A DNA stretch of 64,000 nt from a virus: the IMG/VR virus record IMGVR_UViG_3300025816_000008, positions 25,976 to 89,975 of that record; one strand, given 5' to 3'. Numbering within the stretch: position 1 is the stretch's first letter; every line of letters starts with the position of its first letter. The position numbers were made by a program, and so were the translations under genes. Shown here piece after piece: positions 51,002 to 60,205 of the stretch. The notes under the pieces are model-generated. The model saw only the letters and a list, made by a program, of their open reading frames with translations. It was not told where the DNA came from and did no database searches.

Positions 51002-51714
51002 TTCATTATATTTTTGATGTTGACGGTACACTTACTCCAAGCAGAGGTAAAATGGATGAGGAGTTTTCAAAGTTTTTCTTTGATTTTTGTACTTTAAATA
51101 AAGTGTATTTAGTAACAGGTAGTGATATTCAAAAAACACGAGAGCAAGTTGGAGAAGTTATTTGGGGAATGACTAAGCGTAACTATCAATGTTCTGGTAA
51201 TGATGTATGGGAACGTGGTAAGAATGTTCGTACTTCTACTTTAAAGTTACCGGATGAAATGTGGGGCTATTTAAATAAGGCAATCACTGATAGTTCATTT
51301 CCAGTTCAAAATGGACAACACATTGAAGAACGTCCGGGTCTATATAACTTGTCTATTCCAGGAAGAAATATAGGCAATCGTACTCGAATTCAATATGTAG
51401 CATATGACAATTATACTAACGAAAGAAATAATATTGCTGCTAAGTTACGAGAGCAATTTCCATTGTTTGAATTTAAAGTTGCTGGTGAAACCGGTATAGA
51501 TATTACTGCTAAAGGAAATAATAAATCACAAATTCTTGATGATTTTGATTCTTCAGATGTTATCTATTTCTTTGGAGATAAGTGTGATAAAGGTGGAAAT
51601 GATCATGAACTTGCATTAGCTGTACATGATCGTGGAGGAGAAAATAGTACATATCAAGTAAATAGTTGGGAAGACACATTTTCTTATTTACAAGCTGTTA
51701 AAAATGTGGTATAA
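50998..51714 (+). CDS. HAD IIB hydrolase, eukaryote-type phosphomannomutase-like
   Basis: FDVDGTLT, VTGSD and FFGDK..GGND motifs. Confidence 0.8.
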   Translation: MIHYIFDVDGTLTPSRGKMDEEFSKFFFDFCTLNKVYLVTGSDIQKTREQVGEVIWGMTKRNYQCSGNDVWERGKNVRTSTLKLPDEMWGYLNKAITDSSFPVQNGQHIEERPGLYNLSIPGRNIGNRTRIQYVAYDNYTNERNNIAAKLREQFPLFEFKVAGETGIDITAKGNNKSQILDDFDSSDVIYFFGDKCDKGGNDHELALAVHDRGGENSTYQVNSWEDTFSYLQAVKNVV

Positions 51715-51715
51715 T
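51687..51715 (+). promoter_or_regulatory. Early-type promoter TTTACA-17-TATAAT
   Basis: Consensus with TG extension. Confidence 0.75.
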
Positions 51716-51740
51716 TACATATATAATGAAGGAGAATATA

Positions 51741-52154
51741 ATGAGCGATAACTGGGTTGACGACATTGAAGGTATGCACCATAAATTTGGTGTAGACGAA
51801 TGGTTTGAAAAAAATAAACACGATAAAGAACTCATGAAAAAATTTATTCAATTTCGTATGTTAATGATTTATGAAGAACTCGGCGAAACGATGTCAGCCA
51901 TAAATAATTCGGATAGCGAAGAAATTGTTGATGGTCTTATTGATTTGTGCGTATTTGCTATAGGCACATTAGATATATTTAAGGTTGATGCTAATGCAGC
52001 ATGGAATAAAGTCTTAAAAGCTAATATGGAAAAAGAGCCAGGAGTAAAACCAGGTCGACCAAATAGATTTGGTTTGCCAGATCTTCTTAAACCACACGGT
52101 TGGACACCACCAAATCATAGAGGTAATCATGGAAGTCTCCGCGACGTTCTTTAA
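51741..52154 (+). CDS. All-alpha (MazG/dUTPase-like) dNTP pyrophosphatase; candidate dCTPase
   Basis: EELGE...EEIVDGLID...V..ANM.K...DL.KP.GW motifs. Confidence 0.75.
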   Translation: MSDNWVDDIEGMHHKFGVDEWFEKNKHDKELMKKFIQFRMLMIYEELGETMSAINNSDSEEIVDGLIDLCVFAIGTLDIFKVDANAAWNKVLKANMEKEPGVKPGRPNRFGLPDLLKPHGWTPPNHRGNHGSLRDVL

Positions 52155-53471: not shown

Positions 53472-53843
53472 ATGAAAGATAAGTATTCAATTAGATTTCT
53501 GCAAAAGTGTGCAGAAGTACAAATCAAAAAAAGTAATGACTATCAAAATCCTAACTCTAGAGTAAAGCAGGCCGATTACTATCCTCGCGGCTGTGCTACT
53601 ATTCTTGATACAATGGCTGCGAAAGTCCTTCGTATGCAATCTGTTCTTGAAGCAATGGAAATGGATCCAACTTATCAACCGAACTTTGAGTCACTCGAAG
53701 ACTCTTGTGTTGATATTACTAATTATGCATCATTCTTTGCTGCTTATATGAATGGCGCCATTGATGGCCAGACAGGCGATCGTGATTTTCTAAATCGTCC
53801 TATAGCACCCAAAGGAAAACCAAATGAGATCGTTCAGTCTTAA
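53472..53843 (+). CDS. DUF1599/nucleotide-modification-associated domain-like protein
   Basis: KKSNDY...K..R...EDS..D..NY helical pattern. Confidence 0.55.
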   Translation: MKDKYSIRFLQKCAEVQIKKSNDYQNPNSRVKQADYYPRGCATILDTMAAKVLRMQSVLEAMEMDPTYQPNFESLEDSCVDITNYASFFAAYMNGAIDGQTGDRDFLNRPIAPKGKPNEIVQS

Positions 53844-54303
53844 AGATATAAATTTGATAGAACTCTTGGCCAAAGCAAAGGCTGAGAGTCAACTTATCTT
53901 TGATAAAGAGTCTACTCGTAAAGGTAGAACTCTTGATGATATTACTGTTACCAATATGTACGGTTTAGCAGCTGAACAGTTTCTTATTGAAAAATGTAAT
54001 TTCACTGATAATCCTTTACCATATCAGGATGTAATATCTCCAGAAGGTATTGATGTTGAAGTAAAAGTAACAAAAGTTTTTAATTATATTCCTAATGTAT
54101 TATATCGTTTAAAAGAAAAGCGTAAAAAGTATCCTAGTTTATATCAGCCTGATTGGGTTTTTATATATTTAAATGATAAAAAAACTCGTGATTATGTTTT
54201 TGCTGGTACATATAAATGGAATGGCAAAACATATGTTACTAAAGATTGGTCTTTAGAAATTGATAGAGAATTTCTTGCTAACTATGAAGGAGTAAACAAT
54301 TGA
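53824..54303 (+). CDS. Putative PD-(D/E)xK nuclease
   Basis: G.AAE...YQD(V)...VEVK pattern. Confidence 0.5.
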   Translation: MRSFSLKDINLIELLAKAKAESQLIFDKESTRKGRTLDDITVTNMYGLAAEQFLIEKCNFTDNPLPYQDVISPEGIDVEVKVTKVFNYIPNVLYRLKEKRKKYPSLYQPDWVFIYLNDKKTRDYVFAGTYKWNGKTYVTKDWSLEIDREFLANYEGVNN

Positions 54304-54659
54304 AAGCTGGTAAAGTCTGGGGAATGACTGAACTCATTGAAGCCAATGGTACTTTAGAATTTCATCGTATTGAAATGGAAGCTACGGGAGTATGCTCAAA
54401 ACATCTTCATGAATATAAATGGAATGGCTTTTATATCGAGTCAGGAATAATGCTCATCCGTGTATGGCAAAAAGATTACGATTTAATTGATGAAACTATT
54501 TTACAAGCAGGTGAATATACTAAAGTAAAACCAGGAGTTTATCATCAATTTGAATGTATTGAACCCGGTGTGGCCTTTGAGTTATATTGGGCTGAGTTTA
54601 ACCATAATGATATTATAAGAGAAACTGTAGGGAGATCGGACAATGAGAGAATTTATTAA
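54300..54659 (+). CDS. Cupin (sugar-phosphate isomerase-like)
   Basis: KVWG, SKHLH..K.N.FY..SG and PGVYHQF motifs; TTG start. Confidence 0.75.
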   Translation: MKAGKVWGMTELIEANGTLEFHRIEMEATGVCSKHLHEYKWNGFYIESGIMLIRVWQKDYDLIDETILQAGEYTKVKPGVYHQFECIEPGVAFELYWAEFNHNDIIRETVGRSDNERIY

Positions 54660-54948
54660 TGATGCTTGGAACAGTGTCATGGATGCAGATATTAATCCTT
54701 TAAGAAATATACCAAATCTTCAAGTTAGACATTTAATTATGCAAATACTTGCTTGGATGTGGGTATCTGTATGCTCTATGTACATAGGAAGCATTATGTT
54801 TTGGGGCGTTAACGCAATCGTTCATACATTGTTATTAGCAGCAATTGTGATTACAGTTGGTACATTTGATACCGCAAAGCGCAATCCTAAACTTTTCGAT
54901 AGAATTGATGGATATAATGGTCGTAGAAATAATGGAGAACACGACTAA
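54643..54948 (+). CDS. Small membrane protein
   Basis: Two hydrophobic helices. Confidence 0.7.
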   Translation: MREFINDAWNSVMDADINPLRNIPNLQVRHLIMQILAWMWVSVCSMYIGSIMFWGVNAIVHTLLLAAIVITVGTFDTAKRNPKLFDRIDGYNGRRNNGEHD

Positions 54949-55355
54949 TGAAAGTTGGATTTACTTGTAGTACTTTTGATTTACTTCATGCTGGACATGT
55001 ATCTATGCTCAGAGAAGCAAAGTCACAATGTGACTATTTGATCTGCGGTCTGCAAGTAAATCCTAATATTGATCGTAAGGAAAAGAATTCTCCGATACAA
55101 AATATTGTGGAAAGACAAGTACAGCTTTCTGCAATAAAATATGTTGATGAGATCATTATTTATTGTACAGAAGCCGATTTACTTGATATAATAAACATGT
55201 ATCCAATTAATGTTAGGATACTTGGTGAAGAGTATAGAAGCAAGGATTTTACTGGTAAAGATGAATGTCGCAACCGTGGAATTGATTTATACTTTAACAA
55301 ACGTGATCATCGCTTTTCAACAAGCGATCTAAGAAAGAGAGTATGTGAGCAATGA
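54948..55355 (+). CDS. Cytidylyltransferase (TagD/RfaE-like)
   Basis: TFDLLHAGH (HxGH), ER, YVDE and R....STS motifs. Confidence 0.88.
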   Translation: MKVGFTCSTFDLLHAGHVSMLREAKSQCDYLICGLQVNPNIDRKEKNSPIQNIVERQVQLSAIKYVDEIIIYCTEADLLDIINMYPINVRILGEEYRSKDFTGKDECRNRGIDLYFNKRDHRFSTSDLRKRVCEQ

Positions 55356-56041
55356 AAATGAATTCTGTAAAAGATGTTCGTCAATTCTTTGTTGATGAAT
55401 TAAATGATGAAGCATTCACTATTGATAAAACCGGAGCACGAACTATTGAGATGATCGGCGCATCATTTATTGCTGATGAACCATCTATATTCGGTAAACC
55501 GTCTCTTTCATATATTCAAAAAGAATTAGATTGGTATGATAACCAGTCGACTAATATCTTTGATATTAATAAAGAGTCTGGTGAAGATGCGCCTGCGGCT
55601 TGGAAATATGCTGCTAATACGCATGGTGAAATTAATTCAAACTATGGTCATCTGATTTATGCTAATAAATATTTTGATCAATATCAAAATGCATTGTCTG
55701 AACTAGACAAAAATCCCGATGGTAGGCGTGCTTCTATGATCTATAATCGGCCTTCTATTTGGGTGGAGTTTGACGAAAATGGAAAATCTGATTTCATTTG
55801 TACTAACGCTGTCACTTACTATATTCGTGATAATTTACTTCATTGTGTAGTCCAAATGCGGTCTAATGATGTAGTATTTGGCTATAAGAATGATTATGCT
55901 TGGCAACGACATGTACAAAATAAACTAGTAGAAGATTTAAATAATATCTATAGAGTTAAAGATCCGGTTAGTGCTGGTATGATGATCTGGCAGGTACAAA
56001 ATCTTCACGTATATGAAAGGCATTTTAATCTTGTCACATAA
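55352..56041 (+). CDS. g42: dCMP hydroxymethylase gp42-like (thymidylate synthase fold)
   Basis: SDFICTN (catalytic Cys), MRSNDVVFGYKNDYAWQ and NLHVYERHF. It has Asp at the base-specificity position where dUMP enzymes have Asn. A separate thyX is present. Confidence 0.88.
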   Translation: MKMNSVKDVRQFFVDELNDEAFTIDKTGARTIEMIGASFIADEPSIFGKPSLSYIQKELDWYDNQSTNIFDINKESGEDAPAAWKYAANTHGEINSNYGHLIYANKYFDQYQNALSELDKNPDGRRASMIYNRPSIWVEFDENGKSDFICTNAVTYYIRDNLLHCVVQMRSNDVVFGYKNDYAWQRHVQNKLVEDLNNIYRVKDPVSAGMMIWQVQNLHVYERHFNLVT

Positions 56042-56492
56042 TACTAATCGTCAACACAAATGGGATCTAAGATATTTAGAGCTGGCTAAAACTATTGCTG
56101 GATGGTCTAAGGATCCTTCAAGTCAGATTGGAGCTATTGCTGTAGGTTCAAAAGGACAAGTCTTAGCTCAGGGATATAATGGATTTCCTCGAGGAATGCT
56201 TGATAGTCCTAACTTATATAGTAACCGAGAAGAGAAATATGTCAGAATTGTTCATGCTGAAATGAACATGATTTATAATGCATCTTTTAATGGTGTGTGT
56301 TTAAATAAATCAACTGTTTACGTATCAGGTCTTCCTACTTGTTCTGATTGTGCAAAAGGACTTATTCAAGTAGGAGTTGCTGAACTAGTCATGCCACGAC
56401 AAAAGATTGATGAAAAATGGCATGACTCATGGCAAAGATCTAAGTCATATTACAAAGAAGCTGGTCTAAAATATAGGTGGGTAACAATATGA
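56013..56492 (+). CDS. cd: dCMP deaminase (likely TTG start at 56031)
   Basis: SKDPS, GYNG, HAEMN and PTCSDC motifs. Confidence 0.92.
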   Translation: MKGILILSHNTNRQHKWDLRYLELAKTIAGWSKDPSSQIGAIAVGSKGQVLAQGYNGFPRGMLDSPNLYSNREEKYVRIVHAEMNMIYNASFNGVCLNKSTVYVSGLPTCSDCAKGLIQVGVAELVMPRQKIDEKWHDSWQRSKSYYKEAGLKYRWVTI

Positions 56493-57460
56493 AAGTCATA
56501 ACGAATCCAATTAGCAATATTCCAGTAAATGCTAAGTCACATACTCTTGGTTGGTCACAGTTATGGCGCGATCAGCTTGACGCTTATATAGATAATAAGT
56601 GTACACCTAATGTTAGAAAAGCTAATACTGTTTATATTGATCATGGAGCTAACTTTGGAGGAACGTTAAATCTATTTGGCGGCGCCAATAAAGAAGTTTA
56701 TGATAAGTTGAATATAATTGCATCATGTAAAGATGTGGTCTCACTTGATTGGGACATGCCTGATTATGGAGCTATGTTAAAAAAAAGACTAAGCGCTAAG
56801 ACTACATACGAAGGAATCACTGAAGACTGGTGTGATTTACTATCCAGAAGGTTTAAAAATGTTAAATCACTTAAACAAGAAGAATTGGAATTAAATGATG
56901 CCATTATTGGAGACAGTCATACTTTGTCTTTTAGTGATAGTCGCGATATGGTTTTGCGTCATGACGGCAAGACTCTTTTTGGCTGTCTTAGGACCGGCCT
57001 TGGAAGTCTTACTCGGGGCATTAATACTGATAATTTCAATCGTATTACTTTCTGTTTGGGTTCAATAGATATTCGTCATCATCTACTTCGGCATCCTTTA
57101 GACATCGATTCTTTAATTAATTCTTATTACGAACAAGCTATGAAATATAGCAGTGATTCAACTGATGTTTGGTTTACTGCTCCAGTACCGGTAGAATTTG
57201 AGGGTCGACGCATTCCTAAATCTGGATTCTTTAAAAAAGAACCGTTTTACGGTAGCTGTGAACAGCGTAGAGATGTTACAGATATGTTTATAGCAGCTTT
57301 GTACAAACGAACTAGCAATGTTATACAACCACCAGCTGATTGGTATAACATGGATCCTCAAAAATATGCTGAAACTTATATGGAGCATGGTAGTAGTTTT
57401 CATATAGCTCCACCATTTTATAAAAGAAATAACTGGGGAGCATCAGTTTTTGCCACATAA
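56489..57460 (+). CDS. Putative DNA-modifying enzyme: beta-glucosyltransferase-like N-domain + SGNH-fold domain
   Basis: N-terminal LNLFGG...SLDWD; C-terminal IIGDSH, GKTLFG, LGSID and SFHI (SGNH blocks I, II, III, V). Confidence 0.5.
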   Translation: MKVITNPISNIPVNAKSHTLGWSQLWRDQLDAYIDNKCTPNVRKANTVYIDHGANFGGTLNLFGGANKEVYDKLNIIASCKDVVSLDWDMPDYGAMLKKRLSAKTTYEGITEDWCDLLSRRFKNVKSLKQEELELNDAIIGDSHTLSFSDSRDMVLRHDGKTLFGCLRTGLGSLTRGINTDNFNRITFCLGSIDIRHHLLRHPLDIDSLINSYYEQAMKYSSDSTDVWFTAPVPVEFEGRRIPKSGFFKKEPFYGSCEQRRDVTDMFIAALYKRTSNVIQPPADWYNMDPQKYAETYMEHGSSFHIAPPFYKRNNWGASVFAT

Positions 57461-58349
57461 TAATCACGTAATTGACTTAATCAATAAAGATTATCCTTTC
57501 CCTTGGAGTAGTCCTGAGGAAACTAAGGATTATTATTTAGAATTAGCAAAGGATTGGGAAGATCCTTATGGCCCTCCTGTAATTAAAGTACATGAGGGCA
57601 TTCGTGTTGTTAGAGACGATTACTTAGTTGGTAGTAAGGTTCGAGGTGGTGACTGTCTTATATCTTCTTTACCAGAAAATATAGACACCGTTGTTTATGT
57701 TCAACCAAGAACTGGTTTAGCCGGAGTAAGTATACTCGATGTAGCAAAAAGACATAATCTAAAAGTTAAACTTTTTATGCCTTCATCAAAAAAAATATCA
57801 CCACATCAGGCTTGTTGCATTGAACGTGGAGCGATAGTAGAATTTCATAGAATTGCTGCTATGCCTAATTTAAATGCCATTGCAAAGAAGTGGTCTGATG
57901 CACGATCTAATTGTTTCTTTGTTCCACTCGGATTAAAGCATGAATTGGTTACAGCTGGCATCGTTAAAGTTGCATCAAAAATTGATCCACCTGATGAGGT
58001 TTATACTGCCACGTCCACGGGCGTGCTCACACGGGGGCTTCAAATTGCTTGGCCAAATGCTAAATTTACATCAGTTTGTGTGTCAAGAAATATGAAAGCC
58101 GGAGAGCTTGGTATTGCTGAGGCAATATCCGAGCCGTTAGCATTTACAGCATCTGAGAAAAAAGATAAGCTTCCGCCATTTCCTAATATAGATACTTATG
58201 ATGGTAAAGCTTGGAAGTATATCCCAAAGAATTCAGATAAAGATATTTTATTTTGGAATGTAGGTGCAGAGCCAATATTGAATCGTTGGGCTATTATTGA
58301 TGAAACAAATTCTTATAGGAAGTGGCCAAAAGATGAGCTGGTTAAATGA
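57450..58349 (+). CDS. PLP-dependent enzyme, fold type II (TrpB/cysteine synthase-like)
   Basis: VVRDD..GSK(V)R Schiff-base Lys, STG.L.RG phosphate loop and LFWNVG; TTG start. Confidence 0.75.
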   Translation: MPHNNHVIDLINKDYPFPWSSPEETKDYYLELAKDWEDPYGPPVIKVHEGIRVVRDDYLVGSKVRGGDCLISSLPENIDTVVYVQPRTGLAGVSILDVAKRHNLKVKLFMPSSKKISPHQACCIERGAIVEFHRIAAMPNLNAIAKKWSDARSNCFFVPLGLKHELVTAGIVKVASKIDPPDEVYTATSTGVLTRGLQIAWPNAKFTSVCVSRNMKAGELGIAEAISEPLAFTASEKKDKLPPFPNIDTYDGKAWKYIPKNSDKDILFWNVGAEPILNRWAIIDETNSYRKWPKDELVK

Positions 58350-59352
58350 AGAAGCCCTAGACATTTTTGTCAACTATTATTATCCAAAAGCAAAGTGGCT
58401 TCAAAATAATGTTAATTGGGGTCCATTAGATTATGAAGGTCCAGAGGCAGCAAAAGCCATTGACGATCCTTTAATGCAAAAGATTGACATATACGACTGC
58501 TTTACTCGTAATGCAGCAGGATTTTCTAATGTACTTCAGGATCTTAGATTTGGATCTAAAACTCCAAAATGGAGATGGCAAAATAAAACACGTAGAGAAT
58601 TAAATACTAAAAATGATTCTATTAAATGGGACACTAAAACTTGGATGTATGTATTTTTAAGCCACCGCGTTACTGGTTCCGGCGCTTCATTTGAGAATGA
58701 TCATGGATATAGAAATAATATTATTCAGTTTTGGGGAAAGCATCGTGATATTAAAGACATGTCTGAGGACCTAGTTAGCGCTAAAGCTACTGGCAAACCT
58801 CTTTTTACATCAATCGGAAATCAACCACCTGCTCCAAAAAAGGGAGTATCTAATGTTGATTTTCTTGTTAAAGAGCTTCCAGACGTCATAGATAGATTAG
58901 GTGACTGGATTGTAAAAAGCAAAAGAGGTCATAAAGAAATTGTAGACTTTCTAAATGTTTATAACAAATCTGCCGGACACAGGAAATTTAATTTTCAATA
59001 TGCTGCCTTCTCAATGGATTGTTCTGATTATTTTCCAGAATATGCTGATGTTGATAGCCATACATACTTAGGTAATAACGCTATTCGGTGTATGAAAAAA
59101 CTGTCTGGTGGGTGGAAGCCGGATAGTTTTATGGATTTATTGAGAGAACAAACCGGCGGAAAACCAAAAGATTTAGAAGATGTAATGTGCGACTTTGTCA
59201 GGTTTGGGCAAAATTATGTTCCTAGAGGAAATGGAACCTTCGATCATATACCATCAACGTTAGCAAATAATTCGGGGTGGAATTCTGGCTGGGAACAGCG
59301 GCAGGGTACACCACCTCAAAAAGGTATACAATTAGAGGATTTTATGGTATAA
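58333..59352 (+). CDS. aGPT-Pplase/5-hmdU DNA kinase helical-domain-like DNA base-modifying protein
   Basis: DDPLMQ....D...R, F....D...Y.P, LGNNA and DLEDVMCDFVRF resemble the family pattern (DPIL..N..R / G.GA / E..LCE..K). Confidence 0.5.
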   Translation: MSWLNEEALDIFVNYYYPKAKWLQNNVNWGPLDYEGPEAAKAIDDPLMQKIDIYDCFTRNAAGFSNVLQDLRFGSKTPKWRWQNKTRRELNTKNDSIKWDTKTWMYVFLSHRVTGSGASFENDHGYRNNIIQFWGKHRDIKDMSEDLVSAKATGKPLFTSIGNQPPAPKKGVSNVDFLVKELPDVIDRLGDWIVKSKRGHKEIVDFLNVYNKSAGHRKFNFQYAAFSMDCSDYFPEYADVDSHTYLGNNAIRCMKKLSGGWKPDSFMDLLREQTGGKPKDLEDVMCDFVRFGQNYVPRGNGTFDHIPSTLANNSGWNSGWEQRQGTPPQKGIQLEDFMV

Positions 59353-60173
59353 TGGCTAAAAAATTAAAAATATCCGTGATCGGTTGTGGTTTTGTAGGCA
59401 CAGCTGTTATTAATGGTTTTGATAAAAAATTATGTGATATTGCACCAATTGACATTAAGTATAATACCACAGTGTCAGATACTGATCCATTTTGTGATGT
59501 ATTTTTTGTGTGTTTACCTACACCAAGCGAGGATGATGGATCAGTTAACGCTGCACTTGTAATTGAAACTGTTAAATGGTTAAAGCTTAATAGAGCTGGA
59601 CACATCGTAATAAAATCAACCGTCACACCTGATATTATAGATAAACTTTCTGGTGATAGAGTAGTTTATAATCCTGAATTTTTAACTGAAAAATCTGCAG
59701 ATGAAGATTTCATTAATTCGGCAATGCATATATTTGGAGGGCATATTAAAGATACAAACAATATTGAAAAAATATATAAAAAATATAGTAAATGTAAACC
59801 TTGCCCATGCCACCATGTGACATTAAAAGAAGCAAGTTTTATTAAATACGGAGTTAATTGTTTTCTTGCCACAAAAGTATTATGGTTTAATCAATTCTAT
59901 AATATAATACAAAAACACGATTGTAATTTTGATGAGATTACTTATGCAATGAGATCAGATCCAAGGATTGGTAACTCTCATACGAGTGTTCCAGGATTTG
60001 ATGGCAAAATGGGTTTTGGTGGAGCTTGTTTTCCAAAAGATACTTCAGCATTTTTAGATTTTGCAATATCATTTTCAGTCCTAAATGAGGTAATACAAGC
60101 AAATAATAAGATTAGATCTGAATATACGAAAGATAAAAGAGAGCTTGAGCAAAATGTCTCTTTTAGTAAATAA
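59352..60173 (+). CDS. UDP-glucose/GDP-mannose 6-dehydrogenase family, lacking the C-terminal domain
   Basis: GCGFVG, IKSTV, YNPEFL, KY..N.FLA.K and GFGGACFPKD motifs. Confidence 0.88.
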   Translation: MAKKLKISVIGCGFVGTAVINGFDKKLCDIAPIDIKYNTTVSDTDPFCDVFFVCLPTPSEDDGSVNAALVIETVKWLKLNRAGHIVIKSTVTPDIIDKLSGDRVVYNPEFLTEKSADEDFINSAMHIFGGHIKDTNNIEKIYKKYSKCKPCPCHHVTLKEASFIKYGVNCFLATKVLWFNQFYNIIQKHDCNFDEITYAMRSDPRIGNSHTSVPGFDGKMGFGGACFPKDTSAFLDFAISFSVLNEVIQANNKIRSEYTKDKRELEQNVSFSK

Positions 60174-60176
60174 CTA

Positions 60177-60205
60177 TTTACATTACTTTCTTTCTATGTT
60201 ATAAT
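60177..60205 (+). promoter_or_regulatory. Early-type promoter TTTACA-17-TATAAT for uvsX
   Basis: Consensus match. Confidence 0.8.

What the first reader, a model, noticed from the sequence alone, without database searches (positions are those of the whole stretch)
58333..59352. Divergent aGPT-Pplase/5-hmdU-DNA-kinase-like protein in an hmC context
Motif spacing resembles the helical, glycosylase-like family that activates 5-hmdU in DNA, with an extra HRVTGSG...DHGY segment. Its neighbour makes hm-dCMP rather than hm-dUMP, so it may activate or derivatise hmC in DNA. The adjacent PLP enzyme could then process the adduct or make the donor.
Basis: inference. Interest (0 to 1): 0.7.

Follow-up and report, generated by a model that had tools for sequence, protein, structure and literature searches.

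The report
Kinase-less hydroxymethylcytosine DNA-modifying transferase-like enzyme
This marine T4-like phage gene encodes a DNA-glycosylase-fold protein related to the enzymes that attach amino acids to thymine in other phages, but here it is tied to hydroxymethylcytosine and to an esterase-fold and a vitamin-B6 enzyme, so the phage DNA probably carries a cytosine decoration that has not been described.

Summary
The ORF at 58333-59352 (339 aa) is real and conserved: about 130 clusters at 50% identity and 430 IMG/VR contigs. No Pfam, PHROG, NCBIfam or PDB sequence profile hits it. Its AlphaFold model (pLDDT 94.5) has the helix-hairpin-helix glycosylase fold. The best solved match is the PaMx11 gp46 amino-acid:DNA transferase (Z 9.2), statistically tied with archaeal 8-oxoguanine glycosylases. 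A motif E282-x3-C286-x-F is kept in 183-184 of 185 relatives and has the same pattern as the catalytic Glu/Cys motif of gp46. The gene travels with an SGNH-fold protein and a fold-type-II PLP enzyme, beside a T4 gp42-type dCMP hydroxymethylase, in T4-like and T7-like phages. In some phages the SGNH protein and this protein are one polypeptide. No 5-hmU-DNA-kinase-type kinase was found, and a positive control worked. The chemistry, including substrate, donor and the SGNH role, is inferred. This scan has already flagged the same cassette on other DNA (notes from at least 29 genomes). I found no paper describing it.

The parts
58333..59352 (+). Target gene: 339-aa all-alpha HhH-glycosylase-fold protein of the aGPT-Pplase/AADT/HMUDK-helical superfamily
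   Evidence: ORF. Homologues. AF2 model pLDDT 94.5. Fold matches.
58663..58710 (+). Codons for residues 111-126 (HRVTGSGASFENDHGY), the most conserved loop. It lies between helices 101-113 and 130-136.
   Evidence: Invariant or near-invariant H111, R112, G115, S116, G117, G125. Secondary structure.
59176..59196 (+). Codons for residues 282-288 (E-D-V-M-C-D-F): candidate catalytic Glu/Cys motif in the last helix
   Evidence: E282 in 184/185 and C286 in 183/185 relatives. Same E-x3-C-x-[FW] pattern as invariant E243/C247/W249 of the gp46 clade and as 'EIACCQF' in Aeromonas phage 31 ORF233c.
57450..58349 (+). Fold-type-II (PALP) PLP enzyme, 299 aa, with invariant Lys63 in GSKVRGG
   Evidence: PF00291 at E 4.4e-4, below its cut-off. 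phrog_7093 at E 1.4e-32. Invariant residues. A homologue at 32% identity in Erythrobacter phage ZS04 passes the PALP cut-off.
56477..57460 (+). Two-domain protein (327 aa from GTG 56477; homologues suggest the ATG at 56489). It has an N-terminal alpha/beta domain plus a C-terminal SGNH/GDSL-fold domain, and is fused to the target family in other phages.
   Evidence: phrog_13881 at E 4.7e-87. AF2 model pLDDT 91.6. SGNH fold at Z 12.0 over residues 139-319. Invariant G145-D-S147-H148 and H309. Fusion proteins.
55352..56041 (+). T4 gp42-type dCMP hydroxymethylase
   Evidence: E 1.9e-68 to PDB 1B49, with motif RSNDVVFGYKND.
56013..56492 (+). dCMP deaminase (nucleotide supply, not a constant member of the cassette)
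   Evidence: PF00383 at E 2.4e-15. Elsewhere or absent in many related loci.
51726..52154 (+). MazG/PRA-PH-type NTP pyrophosphohydrolase, a candidate dCTPase for hmC replacement
   Evidence: PF01503 at E 5.3e-8. Present near the cassette in 43 of 80 related loci.
54300..55355 (+). Variable accessory genes: cupin, small membrane protein, TagD/RfaE-type cytidylyl/adenylyltransferase
   Evidence: Present in only 12-14 of 80 related loci.
59352..60173 (+). Truncated nucleotide-sugar dehydrogenase-like gene (variable accessory). It is also present in the relative C48C1, which lacks the cassette between primase and uvsX.
   Evidence: Present in 22 of 80 loci.

Best explanation
The gene encodes a catalytic, base-flipping enzyme of the aGPT-Pplase / amino-acid:DNA-transferase (AADT) superfamily that acts on 5-hydroxymethylcytosine already built into the phage DNA. 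The gp42 homologue, with a MazG-type pyrophosphatase, supplies hm-dCTP, so the DNA contains hmC. After replication, this protein works with the SGNH-fold protein (one polypeptide in some phages) and the fold-type-II PLP enzyme. By analogy with AADTs, Cys286 adds to C6 of the flipped hmC and Glu282 acts as a general acid. The C5 substituent leaves to give an exocyclic methylene, and a nucleophile, most likely an amino acid or amine, is captured. The cassette has no DNA kinase. The leaving group is therefore either water itself or an ester installed by the SGNH enzyme, which would stand in for the kinase. The PLP enzyme then tailors the adduct or makes the donor. Shown here: the fold, the conserved motif, the gene linkage and fusion, the hmC-type hydroxymethylase and the absence of a 5-HMUDK-type kinase. 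Inferred: the substrate, the catalytic roles of C286 and E282, the role of the SGNH protein, and the identity of the product.
For: Fold. The AF2 model has pLDDT 94.5. Its best solved match is PaMx11 gp46 AADT 8z2m, at Z 9.2 and rmsd 3.8 A over 205 residues. The next 17 hits are all HhH glycosylase-fold proteins. In BFVD, family members are named AADT domain-containing (E 9e-16, TM 0.82), and Pplase1 and HMUDK helical domains follow. The nearest ESM Atlas clusters carry PF18723 and PF18724 in 10-36% of members. One aligned relative hits PF18724 at E 1e-3 and another hits PF18723 at E 0.01.

Motif. E282 is kept in 184/185 relatives and C286 in 183/185. The pattern E-x3-C-x-[FW] matches invariant E243/C247 of the gp46 clade. 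C247 contacts the target nucleoside (PMC11472151), and the Cys and the nearby Glu are essential in M6 gp51 and ViI gp247 (PMC8989533).

Linkage. In 80 IMG/VR loci the PLP gene is present in 74, the SGNH gene in 64 and gp42 in 57. Many of these contigs are truncated at one end, so these counts are lower bounds. Gene order varies, and the sugar-type genes are present in only 12-22 loci. The trio is also found in T7-like podovirus loci beside a dCMP-type TS homologue.

Fusion. Proteins of 719-790 aa carry the SGNH protein at the N-terminus and the target family at the C-terminus.

hmC context. The gp42 orthologue has Asp at both diagnostic positions.

No kinase. PF13671 detects the PaMx11 gp49 5-HMUDK as a positive control. 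It finds nothing over its cut-off in this record or in four cassette-bearing records, one of them 93% complete.
Against: No Pfam, PHROG, NCBIfam or PDB sequence profile hits the protein itself. hhalign between the family and the gp46 clade is not significant (probability 3.5%). Its top local alignment pairs the gp46 Cys helix with residues 200-212, not 282-286. The Z of 9.2 for gp46 is within 1 unit of AGOG, QNG1 and OGG (8.1-8.5), so the solved-structure search alone cannot separate transferase from glycosylase. I could not superpose coordinates, so the equivalence of C286 with gp46 C247 is inferred from pattern and position only. No acyl donor or nucleophile is known. No DNA from such a phage has been analysed.
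Confidence: 0.6

Rival explanations
1. The protein is a non-catalytic DNA-binding, base-flipping partner that presents hmC to the SGNH enzyme. This would mirror the clade-1 Pplase (HMUDK_hel) domain that accompanies the P-loop 5-hmU DNA kinase. The chemistry would be done by the SGNH and PLP enzymes alone.
For: Relatives are fused C-terminally to the SGNH protein, as HMUDK_hel is fused to the kinase in SP10 (row 9). The nearest ESM clusters carry PF18723 more often than PF18724. Aeromonas phage 31 ORF233c has the same SGNH-plus-helical architecture, with a weak PF18723 hit at E 0.0036.
Against: The polar residues R59, H111, R112, D229, E282, D283, C286 and D287 are almost invariant, which suggests an active site rather than a mere binding surface. 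The Glu/Cys pattern equals that of catalytic AADTs. In most loci the gene is separate from the SGNH gene.
Confidence: 0.2
2. It is a true HhH DNA glycosylase or nucleoside hydrolase (AGOG/OGG/QNG1-like) that removes a base, for example from host cytosine DNA or from a salvage substrate.
For: Fold matches to AGOG, OGG, Mag1, EndoIII and QNG1 at Z 6-8.5, tied with gp46 within 1 Z unit. Foldseek's top PDB hits are AGOG.
Against: There is no sequence-profile match to any solved glycosylase. The gene is constantly linked with gp42, a PLP enzyme and an SGNH enzyme, and is fused to the latter. The nearest named viral relatives are AADT and Pplase proteins, not glycosylases. The conserved Cys is not a glycosylase feature (established knowledge of HhH-GPD enzymes, which use Asp with or without Lys).
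Confidence: 0.07
3. It acts on hydroxymethyluracil rather than hmC. The hmU would come from deamination of hm-dCMP by the neighbouring dCMP deaminase, or from hmC in DNA. The pathway would then be an ordinary thymidine-type hypermodification.
For: A dCMP deaminase gene sits between gp42 and the SGNH gene. All characterised AADTs act on hmU-derived bases (PMC8989533).
Against: The deaminase is absent from the cassette neighbourhood or lies elsewhere in many loci, including the T7-like ones. No 5-HMUDK kinase is present. A ThyX gene at the window end suggests that the deaminase serves dTMP supply, as in T4.
Confidence: 0.08

Closest known systems
Amino-acid:DNA transferases (AADT, aGPT-Pplase clade 2, Pfam PF18724): PaMx11 gp46/PUGT (PDB 8z2m/8z2n), M6 gp51, ViI gp247, PhiW-14 gp109
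   Same: Both have the two-lobed all-alpha HhH-glycosylase-like fold; gp46 is the best solved match at Z 9.2. Both have a conserved Glu-x3-Cys-x-aromatic motif in a C-terminal helix. Both have a PLP enzyme next door and a thymidylate-synthase-fold hydroxymethylase nearby. Fusion to the preceding pathway enzyme occurs in both systems (PMC8989533).
   Different: The PF18724 HMM does not hit the target, and profile-profile comparison is not significant. The base supply is hm-dCMP, not hm-dUMP. There is no 5-hmU DNA kinase; an SGNH-fold protein is the constant partner. The PLP partner is fold-type II (PALP), not the decarboxylase type described for ViI and M6.
5-hmdU DNA kinase helical domain (HMUDK_hel, PF18723, aGPT-Pplase clade 1)
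   Same: It has the same fold superfamily. It is found as the C-terminal partner of a catalytic domain. Some family members and the Aeromonas phage 31 fusion give weak HMM hits.
   Different: The partner is an SGNH-fold protein, not a P-loop kinase. The PF18723 HMM does not hit the target.
HhH-GPD DNA glycosylases (AGOG, OGG, EndoIII, AlkA/Mag) and the queuosine hydrolase QNG1 (DUF2419)
   Same: The overall fold matches at Z 5-8.5.
   Different: There is no sequence relationship. The genomic context is DNA modification, not repair. The conserved Cys/Glu motif is absent from glycosylase catalytic sets (established knowledge).
T4 hmC glucosylation (alpha-gt, beta-gt)
   Same: It uses the same precursor pathway (gp42) and occupies a similar genome region between the replication genes and uvsX. 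It presumably serves the same purpose, protecting hmC DNA from restriction.
   Different: No T4-type glucosyltransferase was detected in the record. The enzyme folds are different, and the nucleotide-sugar genes are only variable accessories.

Membership tests
AADT / aGPT-Pplase clade 2 (PF18724 ADDT) | Match to the Pfam PF18724 profile above its gathering score | tested here: not met
   No hit at E<=10 by hmmscan and none in the six-frame search of the record. gp46 itself scores 97 bits. One aligned relative reaches E 1e-3.
AADT / aGPT-Pplase clade 2 (PF18724 ADDT) | Two-helix-bundle HhH-glycosylase-like fold, as in PaMx11 gp46 | tested here: met
   8z2m_A at Z 9.2, rmsd 3.8 A, 205 residues aligned, model 10-300 against chain 8-268. 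This is tied within 1 Z unit with AGOG, QNG1 and OGG.
AADT / aGPT-Pplase clade 2 (PF18724 ADDT) | Essential active-site Cys with a nearby essential Glu | tested here: inconclusive
   The E282-x3-C286-x-F288 motif is present and kept in 183-184 of 185 relatives. It has the same pattern as gp46 E243-x3-C247-x-W249. Residue-level structural equivalence could not be checked because no coordinates were available, and hhalign does not align the two motifs.
AADT / aGPT-Pplase clade 2 (PF18724 ADDT) | Works on 5-phosphomethyl-dU made by a P-loop 5-hmU DNA kinase | tested here: not met
   PF13671 finds the PaMx11 gp49 kinase. It finds nothing over its cut-off in this record or in four cassette-bearing records, one of them 93% complete.
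AADT / aGPT-Pplase clade 2 (PF18724 ADDT) | Accompanied by a dUMP hydroxymethylase (Asn at the pyrimidine-specificity position) | tested here: not met
   The TS-fold gene is a gp42 orthologue with Asp at that position. The T7-like loci show the same.
AADT / aGPT-Pplase clade 2 (PF18724 ADDT) | Transfers an amino acid or amine to C5-methylene of a pyrimidine in DNA | not testable with these tools
   This needs biochemical reconstitution.
HMUDK_hel (PF18723, aGPT-Pplase clade 1) | Match to the PF18723 profile | tested here: not met
   No hit. 10-36% of the members of the nearest ESM clusters carry it. One relative reaches E 0.01.
HMUDK_hel (PF18723, aGPT-Pplase clade 1) | Fused to or paired with a P-loop 5-hmU DNA kinase | tested here: not met
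   Relatives are fused to an SGNH-fold protein instead.
HhH-GPD DNA glycosylases | HhH fold | tested here: met
   AGOG Z 8.5, OGG Z 8.3, Mag1 Z 7.2, EndoIII Z 6.0.
HhH-GPD DNA glycosylases | Catalytic Asp (with or without Lys) following the HhH Gly/Pro-rich loop, and sequence-profile similarity to glycosylases | tested here: inconclusive
   The family profile finds no PDB glycosylase at E<=10. An invariant D229 exists, but its structural position was not mapped.

The most novel reading that the evidence does not exclude
The SGNH, AADT-like and PALP trio is a self-sufficient, kinase-independent route that converts hmC in DNA into a chemically new amino-acid-derived cytosine base. The SGNH enzyme esterifies the hydroxymethyl group to make a leaving group. 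The AADT-like enzyme, through Cys286, substitutes it. The fold-type-II PLP enzyme performs a beta-replacement or elimination step directly on the DNA-bound adduct. This base would be widespread in ocean T4-like and T7-like phages, and a related one would occur in the cultured Aeromonas phages 44RR2.8t and 31.
Probability: 0.3. Interest if true: 0.85.

Novelty: new variant of a known kind. Interest (0 to 1): 0.72.

Why it matters
All characterised AADT-type hypermodifications start from hydroxymethyluracil and need a DNA kinase. A cytosine-directed, kinase-less version would be a new branch of DNA hypermodification chemistry and would probably yield a new natural DNA base. It would also explain how gp42-encoding phages without glucosyltransferases protect their hmC DNA. 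The cassette is common in marine viromes: I counted 430 IMG/VR contigs, from T4-like and T7-like phages. It could therefore affect restriction and CRISPR sensitivity, sequencing bias in viromics, and enzyme tools for hmC labelling. The Aeromonas phages 44RR2.8t and 31 are cultured, encode gp42 and lack glucosyltransferases (PMC2993671). They carry a fused SGNH-helical protein with the same Glu/Cys pattern, which offers a bench-accessible relative.

Tried and rejected
**Searches on the target that found nothing**
- Pfam at E<=10, PHROGs at E<=1, NCBIfam, and phmmer or profile search against PDB sequences.
- tblastn against 50,697 phage records.
- Six-frame searches of the record with PF18724, PF18723 and PF09198.

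**Comparisons that were not significant or not informative**
- hhalign of the family against gp46 alone and against a 40-sequence gp46-clade alignment was not significant. A forced global hhalign was uninformative.
- An HMM of the gp46 clade against all family members gave only weak local hits.
- A scan of ten longer relatives to find the member that hits PF18724 did not find it.
- hhalign of the family against Aeromonas phage 31 ORF233c and against phiAS4 ORF0025 and ORF0026 found no similarity. ORF0025 turned out to be a UDP-galactopyranose mutase.
- The C-terminal half of ORF233c has only near-identical relatives in cultured phages, so no profile could be built.
The family profile finds no BGT in the PDB, and PF09198 does not hit the record.

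**Other limits**
Gene context came from IMG/VR loci instead, and no complex test was run.
- The Iyer et al. 2013 paper that defined aGPT-Pplases is not held.
- Full-text literature searches for an hmC-directed AADT or SGNH system found none.
Full report
**What is there**

The finding covers one ORF on the + strand. It starts at ATG 58333 and stops at TAA 59350-59352, giving 339 aa. An AGGA lies 11 nt upstream of the start. The start overlaps the end of the preceding gene by 17 nt, and the stop overlaps the next start as TAATG. The gene therefore sits in a tightly packed, probably translationally coupled run. Consensus promoter-like sites with 11 of 12 matches lie only at 51687-51715 and 60177-60205, and no convincing + strand terminator lies between them. 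The total number of such sites is not above chance, so the operon reading is an inference.

The window is a 34% GC fragment of a T4-like marine myovirus. The record is 89,975 bases and is estimated to be 53% complete. The nearest named relative is the Kyanoviridae phage C48C1. In C48C1 the primase-to-uvsX interval holds only two nucleotide-sugar genes.

**Is it a real, conserved gene?**

Yes. The protein has 173 relatives at 90% clustering in the word-based search, the closest at 99% identity and the same length. An exhaustive HMMER search finds 130 clusters at 50% identity. In IMG/VR, 430 viral contigs encode a relative. In 185 full-length relatives the residues R59, H111, R112, G115, S116, G117, G125, N128, G162, F221, D229, G247, N249, E282, D283, C286 and D287 are invariant or nearly so.

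**What family is it?**

Sequence profiles are silent. Pfam at E<=10, PHROGs, NCBIfam, PDB sequences searched with both the single sequence and the family profile, and tblastn against cultured phages all return nothing. Six-frame searches of the record with PF18724 (ADDT) and PF18723 (HMUDK_hel) also find nothing.

The fold gives an answer. An AlphaFold2 model built on a 68-sequence alignment has mean pLDDT 94.5 and pTM 0.91, with 14 helices. The full-PDB aligner puts PaMx11 gp46, the 5-phosphomethyl-dU glycinyltransferase (AADT), first at Z 9.2, rmsd 3.8 A and 205 residues. It is followed by AGOG, QNG1/DUF2419, OGG, Mag1, NTHL1, AlkA, EndoIII and MutY. The first 18 rows are all helix-hairpin-helix glycosylase-fold proteins.

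Three other results favour the phage modification branch:
- In BFVD the three best hits (E 4e-16 to 8e-15, TM 0.75-0.84, 27-29% identity) are members of the target's own family. One of them is named 'Amino acid:DNA transferase domain-containing protein'. The next hits are another AADT-domain protein, two 'Pplase1' proteins and several '5-hmdU DNA kinase helical domain' proteins, including those of SP10 and PhiW-14.
- In the ESM Atlas, 10-36% of the members of the nearest clusters carry PF18723 and 12% carry PF18724.
- When all 68 aligned relatives were scanned, one hit PF18724 at E 1e-3 and one hit PF18723 at E 0.01.

The family is thus an outlying branch of the aGPT-Pplase superfamily that current Pfam models barely reach. 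Profile-profile comparison with a gp46-clade alignment is not significant.

**A shared catalytic-type motif**

The gp46 clade has invariant Q240, E241, E243, T244, L246, C247 and K250. C247 turns toward the target nucleoside in the crystal structure (PMC11472151). The conserved Cys and neighbouring Glu are essential in M6 gp51 and ViI gp247, where Cys attack at C6 creates an exocyclic C5 methylene (PMC8989533).

The target has E282-D-V-M-C286-D-F288 in its last helix. This is the same E-x3-C-x-aromatic pattern as gp46 E243-T-I-L-C247-K-W249. It is kept in 184 and 183 of 185 relatives. The C-terminal region of Aeromonas phage 31 ORF233c also has E-I-A-C-C-Q-F, inside a stretch that weakly matches PF18723 (E 0.0036).

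I could not superpose coordinates, and hhalign does not align the motifs. Equivalence is therefore inferred from the pattern and from the position near the C-terminal end of the aligned range.

**Genomic company**

I ran tblastn with the window's proteins on 80 IMG/VR loci whose target homologues share 60-100% identity. Many of these contigs are truncated, so the counts below are lower bounds.

| Gene | Loci with the gene (of 80) |
|---|---|
| PLP gene | 74 |
| SGNH-type gene | 64 |
| gp42 | 57 |
| UDP-sugar dehydrogenase-like gene | 22 |
| Cytidylyltransferase | 14 |
| Cupin | 12 |

Gene order differs between loci (SGNH-PLP-target or target-PLP-SGNH). The conserved unit is therefore gp42 plus the trio, and the sugar-type genes are accessories.

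The trio recurs at 30-46% identity in T7-like podovirus loci. These also carry an integrase, T7 RNA polymerase, SSB, endonuclease I and a dNMP kinase. Their TS homologue again has Asp at the pyrimidine-specificity position, with exact R-S-x-D +8 spacing.

Proteins of 719-790 aa carry the SGNH protein at the N-terminus (30-31% identity, E 1e-31 to 3e-45) and the target family at the C-terminus. This is a Rosetta-stone fusion and argues that the two act together.

**The partners**

*SGNH protein.* The upstream 327-aa protein belongs to phrog_13881. Its model has pLDDT 91.6. Its C-terminal domain (residues 139-319) has an SGNH/GDSL fold at Z 12.0. The match list includes the peptidoglycan O-acetyltransferases PatB and OatA as well as many esterases. 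G145-D-S147-H148, G195-x-I-D198 and S307-x-H309 are invariant, so a Ser/His site is intact.

*PLP protein.* It matches PALP only below the Pfam cut-off (E 4.4e-4). It matches phrog_7093 at E 1.4e-32. It shares 32% identity with a domain of Erythrobacter phage ZS04 gp7 that passes the PALP cut-off and is fused to an N6/N4 DNA-methylase domain. Lys63 in GSKVRGG and S189-T-G191 are invariant. This fits a fold-type-II PLP site, although no solved structure matches significantly.

*gp42 homologue.* It matches T4 dCMP hydroxymethylase at E 1.9e-68. It keeps Asp at the position equivalent to ThyA D169; that position is Asn in the recently described 5-hydroxy-dCMP synthases (PMC13326640). It also keeps Asp at the N177-equivalent position. 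The base supplied should therefore be hmC.

*No kinase.* PF13671 detects the PaMx11 gp49 5-hmU DNA kinase in a control search. It finds nothing over its cut-off in this record or in four other cassette-bearing records, one of them a 93%-complete T7-like genome.

**Mechanism proposed**

I judge it 60% likely that the protein is the group-transfer enzyme of a post-replicative hmC hypermodification pathway. It would flip hmC out of the helix. Cys286 would add to C6, Glu282 would protonate the leaving group, and a nucleophile would add to the exocyclic methylene. Because there is no kinase, one of two routes applies. Either the hydroxyl leaves directly, which is chemically the reverse of the last step of gp42-type catalysis (an inference from established TS-family chemistry). 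Or the SGNH enzyme first esterifies it and so replaces the kinase. The PLP enzyme would tailor the adduct or make the donor. Only fold, motif, linkage, fusion and context are shown here; the rest is inference.

The rival readings are:
- a non-catalytic base-flipping helper of the SGNH enzyme (0.2);
- action on hmU (0.08);
- a true glycosylase or hydrolase (0.07).

**Comparison and novelty**

The system resembles the thymidine hypermodification pathways of M6, PaMx11, ViI, PhiW-14 and SP10. It fails three of their defining features: an HMM match, the kinase, and dUMP hydroxymethylase. It is therefore not a member of PF18724 as currently defined. It is a new variant of the same kind.

Aeromonas phages 44RR, 31 and 25 encode gp42 and gp56 but no glucosyltransferase (PMC2993671). 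Phages 44RR and 31 carry the 795-aa SGNH-helical fusion, which gives a cultured test system.

My full-text searches found no description of an hmC-directed AADT or SGNH system. Notes of this scan show that the same cassette was flagged earlier in at least 29 other genomes, with follow-up readings that agree with mine ('kinase-less hydroxymethylcytosine hypermodification cassette'). I treated those notes as leads only.

Noticed in passing
L087:5402-6925 (Aeromonas phage 31 ORF234c): A 507-aa sodium:solute symporter gene (PF00474, E 7e-53) lies directly upstream of the SGNH-helical fusion ORF233c in a T4-like phage. A phage-encoded importer beside a putative DNA-modification enzyme could supply the donor molecule.
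   Followed up: no
L088:2326-4764 (Erythrobacter phage ZS04 gp7; similar in vB_EliS_R6L and Microcystis phage Mae-JY30): An 812-aa protein fuses an N6/N4 DNA-methylase domain with a PALP-type PLP domain homologous to the window's PLP enzyme (32% identity), plus about 200 unassigned C-terminal residues. It suggests that this PLP clade acts on DNA bases more widely.
   Followed up: partly
L094:2787-6059 (Aeromonas phage phiAS4 ORF0025-0027): In phiAS4-type phages the stand-alone SGNH two-domain protein (phrog_13881) sits next to a UDP-galactopyranose mutase and an unassigned 358-aa protein. The SGNH family therefore also occurs in a sugar (galactofuranose?) context, without the AADT-like or PLP genes.
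   Followed up: partly
L091:357-2160 and L092:1535-4387: The SGNH, AADT-like and PLP trio occurs in T7-like podovirus contigs. These also carry an integrase, T7 RNA polymerase, SSB, endonuclease I, a dNMP kinase and a dCMP-type TS homologue. One contig is 93% complete at 37 kb.
   Followed up: yes
window 51687-51715 and 60177-60205: Two 11/12 sigma-70-like promoter matches with extended -10 TG bracket the whole island, before the MazG-like gene and before uvsX. No clear + strand terminator lies between them.
   Followed up: no
window 56477-56492: The SGNH gene's listed GTG start (56477) gives 327 aa. Homologues are 316-325 aa, so the ATG at 56489 is the likelier start. Either way it overlaps the end of the dCMP deaminase gene.
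   Followed up: partly
window 53472-53843 and 53824-54303: Two small conserved ORFs (123 and 159 aa) without Pfam hits travel with gp42 in many related loci: 37 and 23 of 80. In one arrangement the 123-aa ORF directly precedes gp42.
   Followed up: partly
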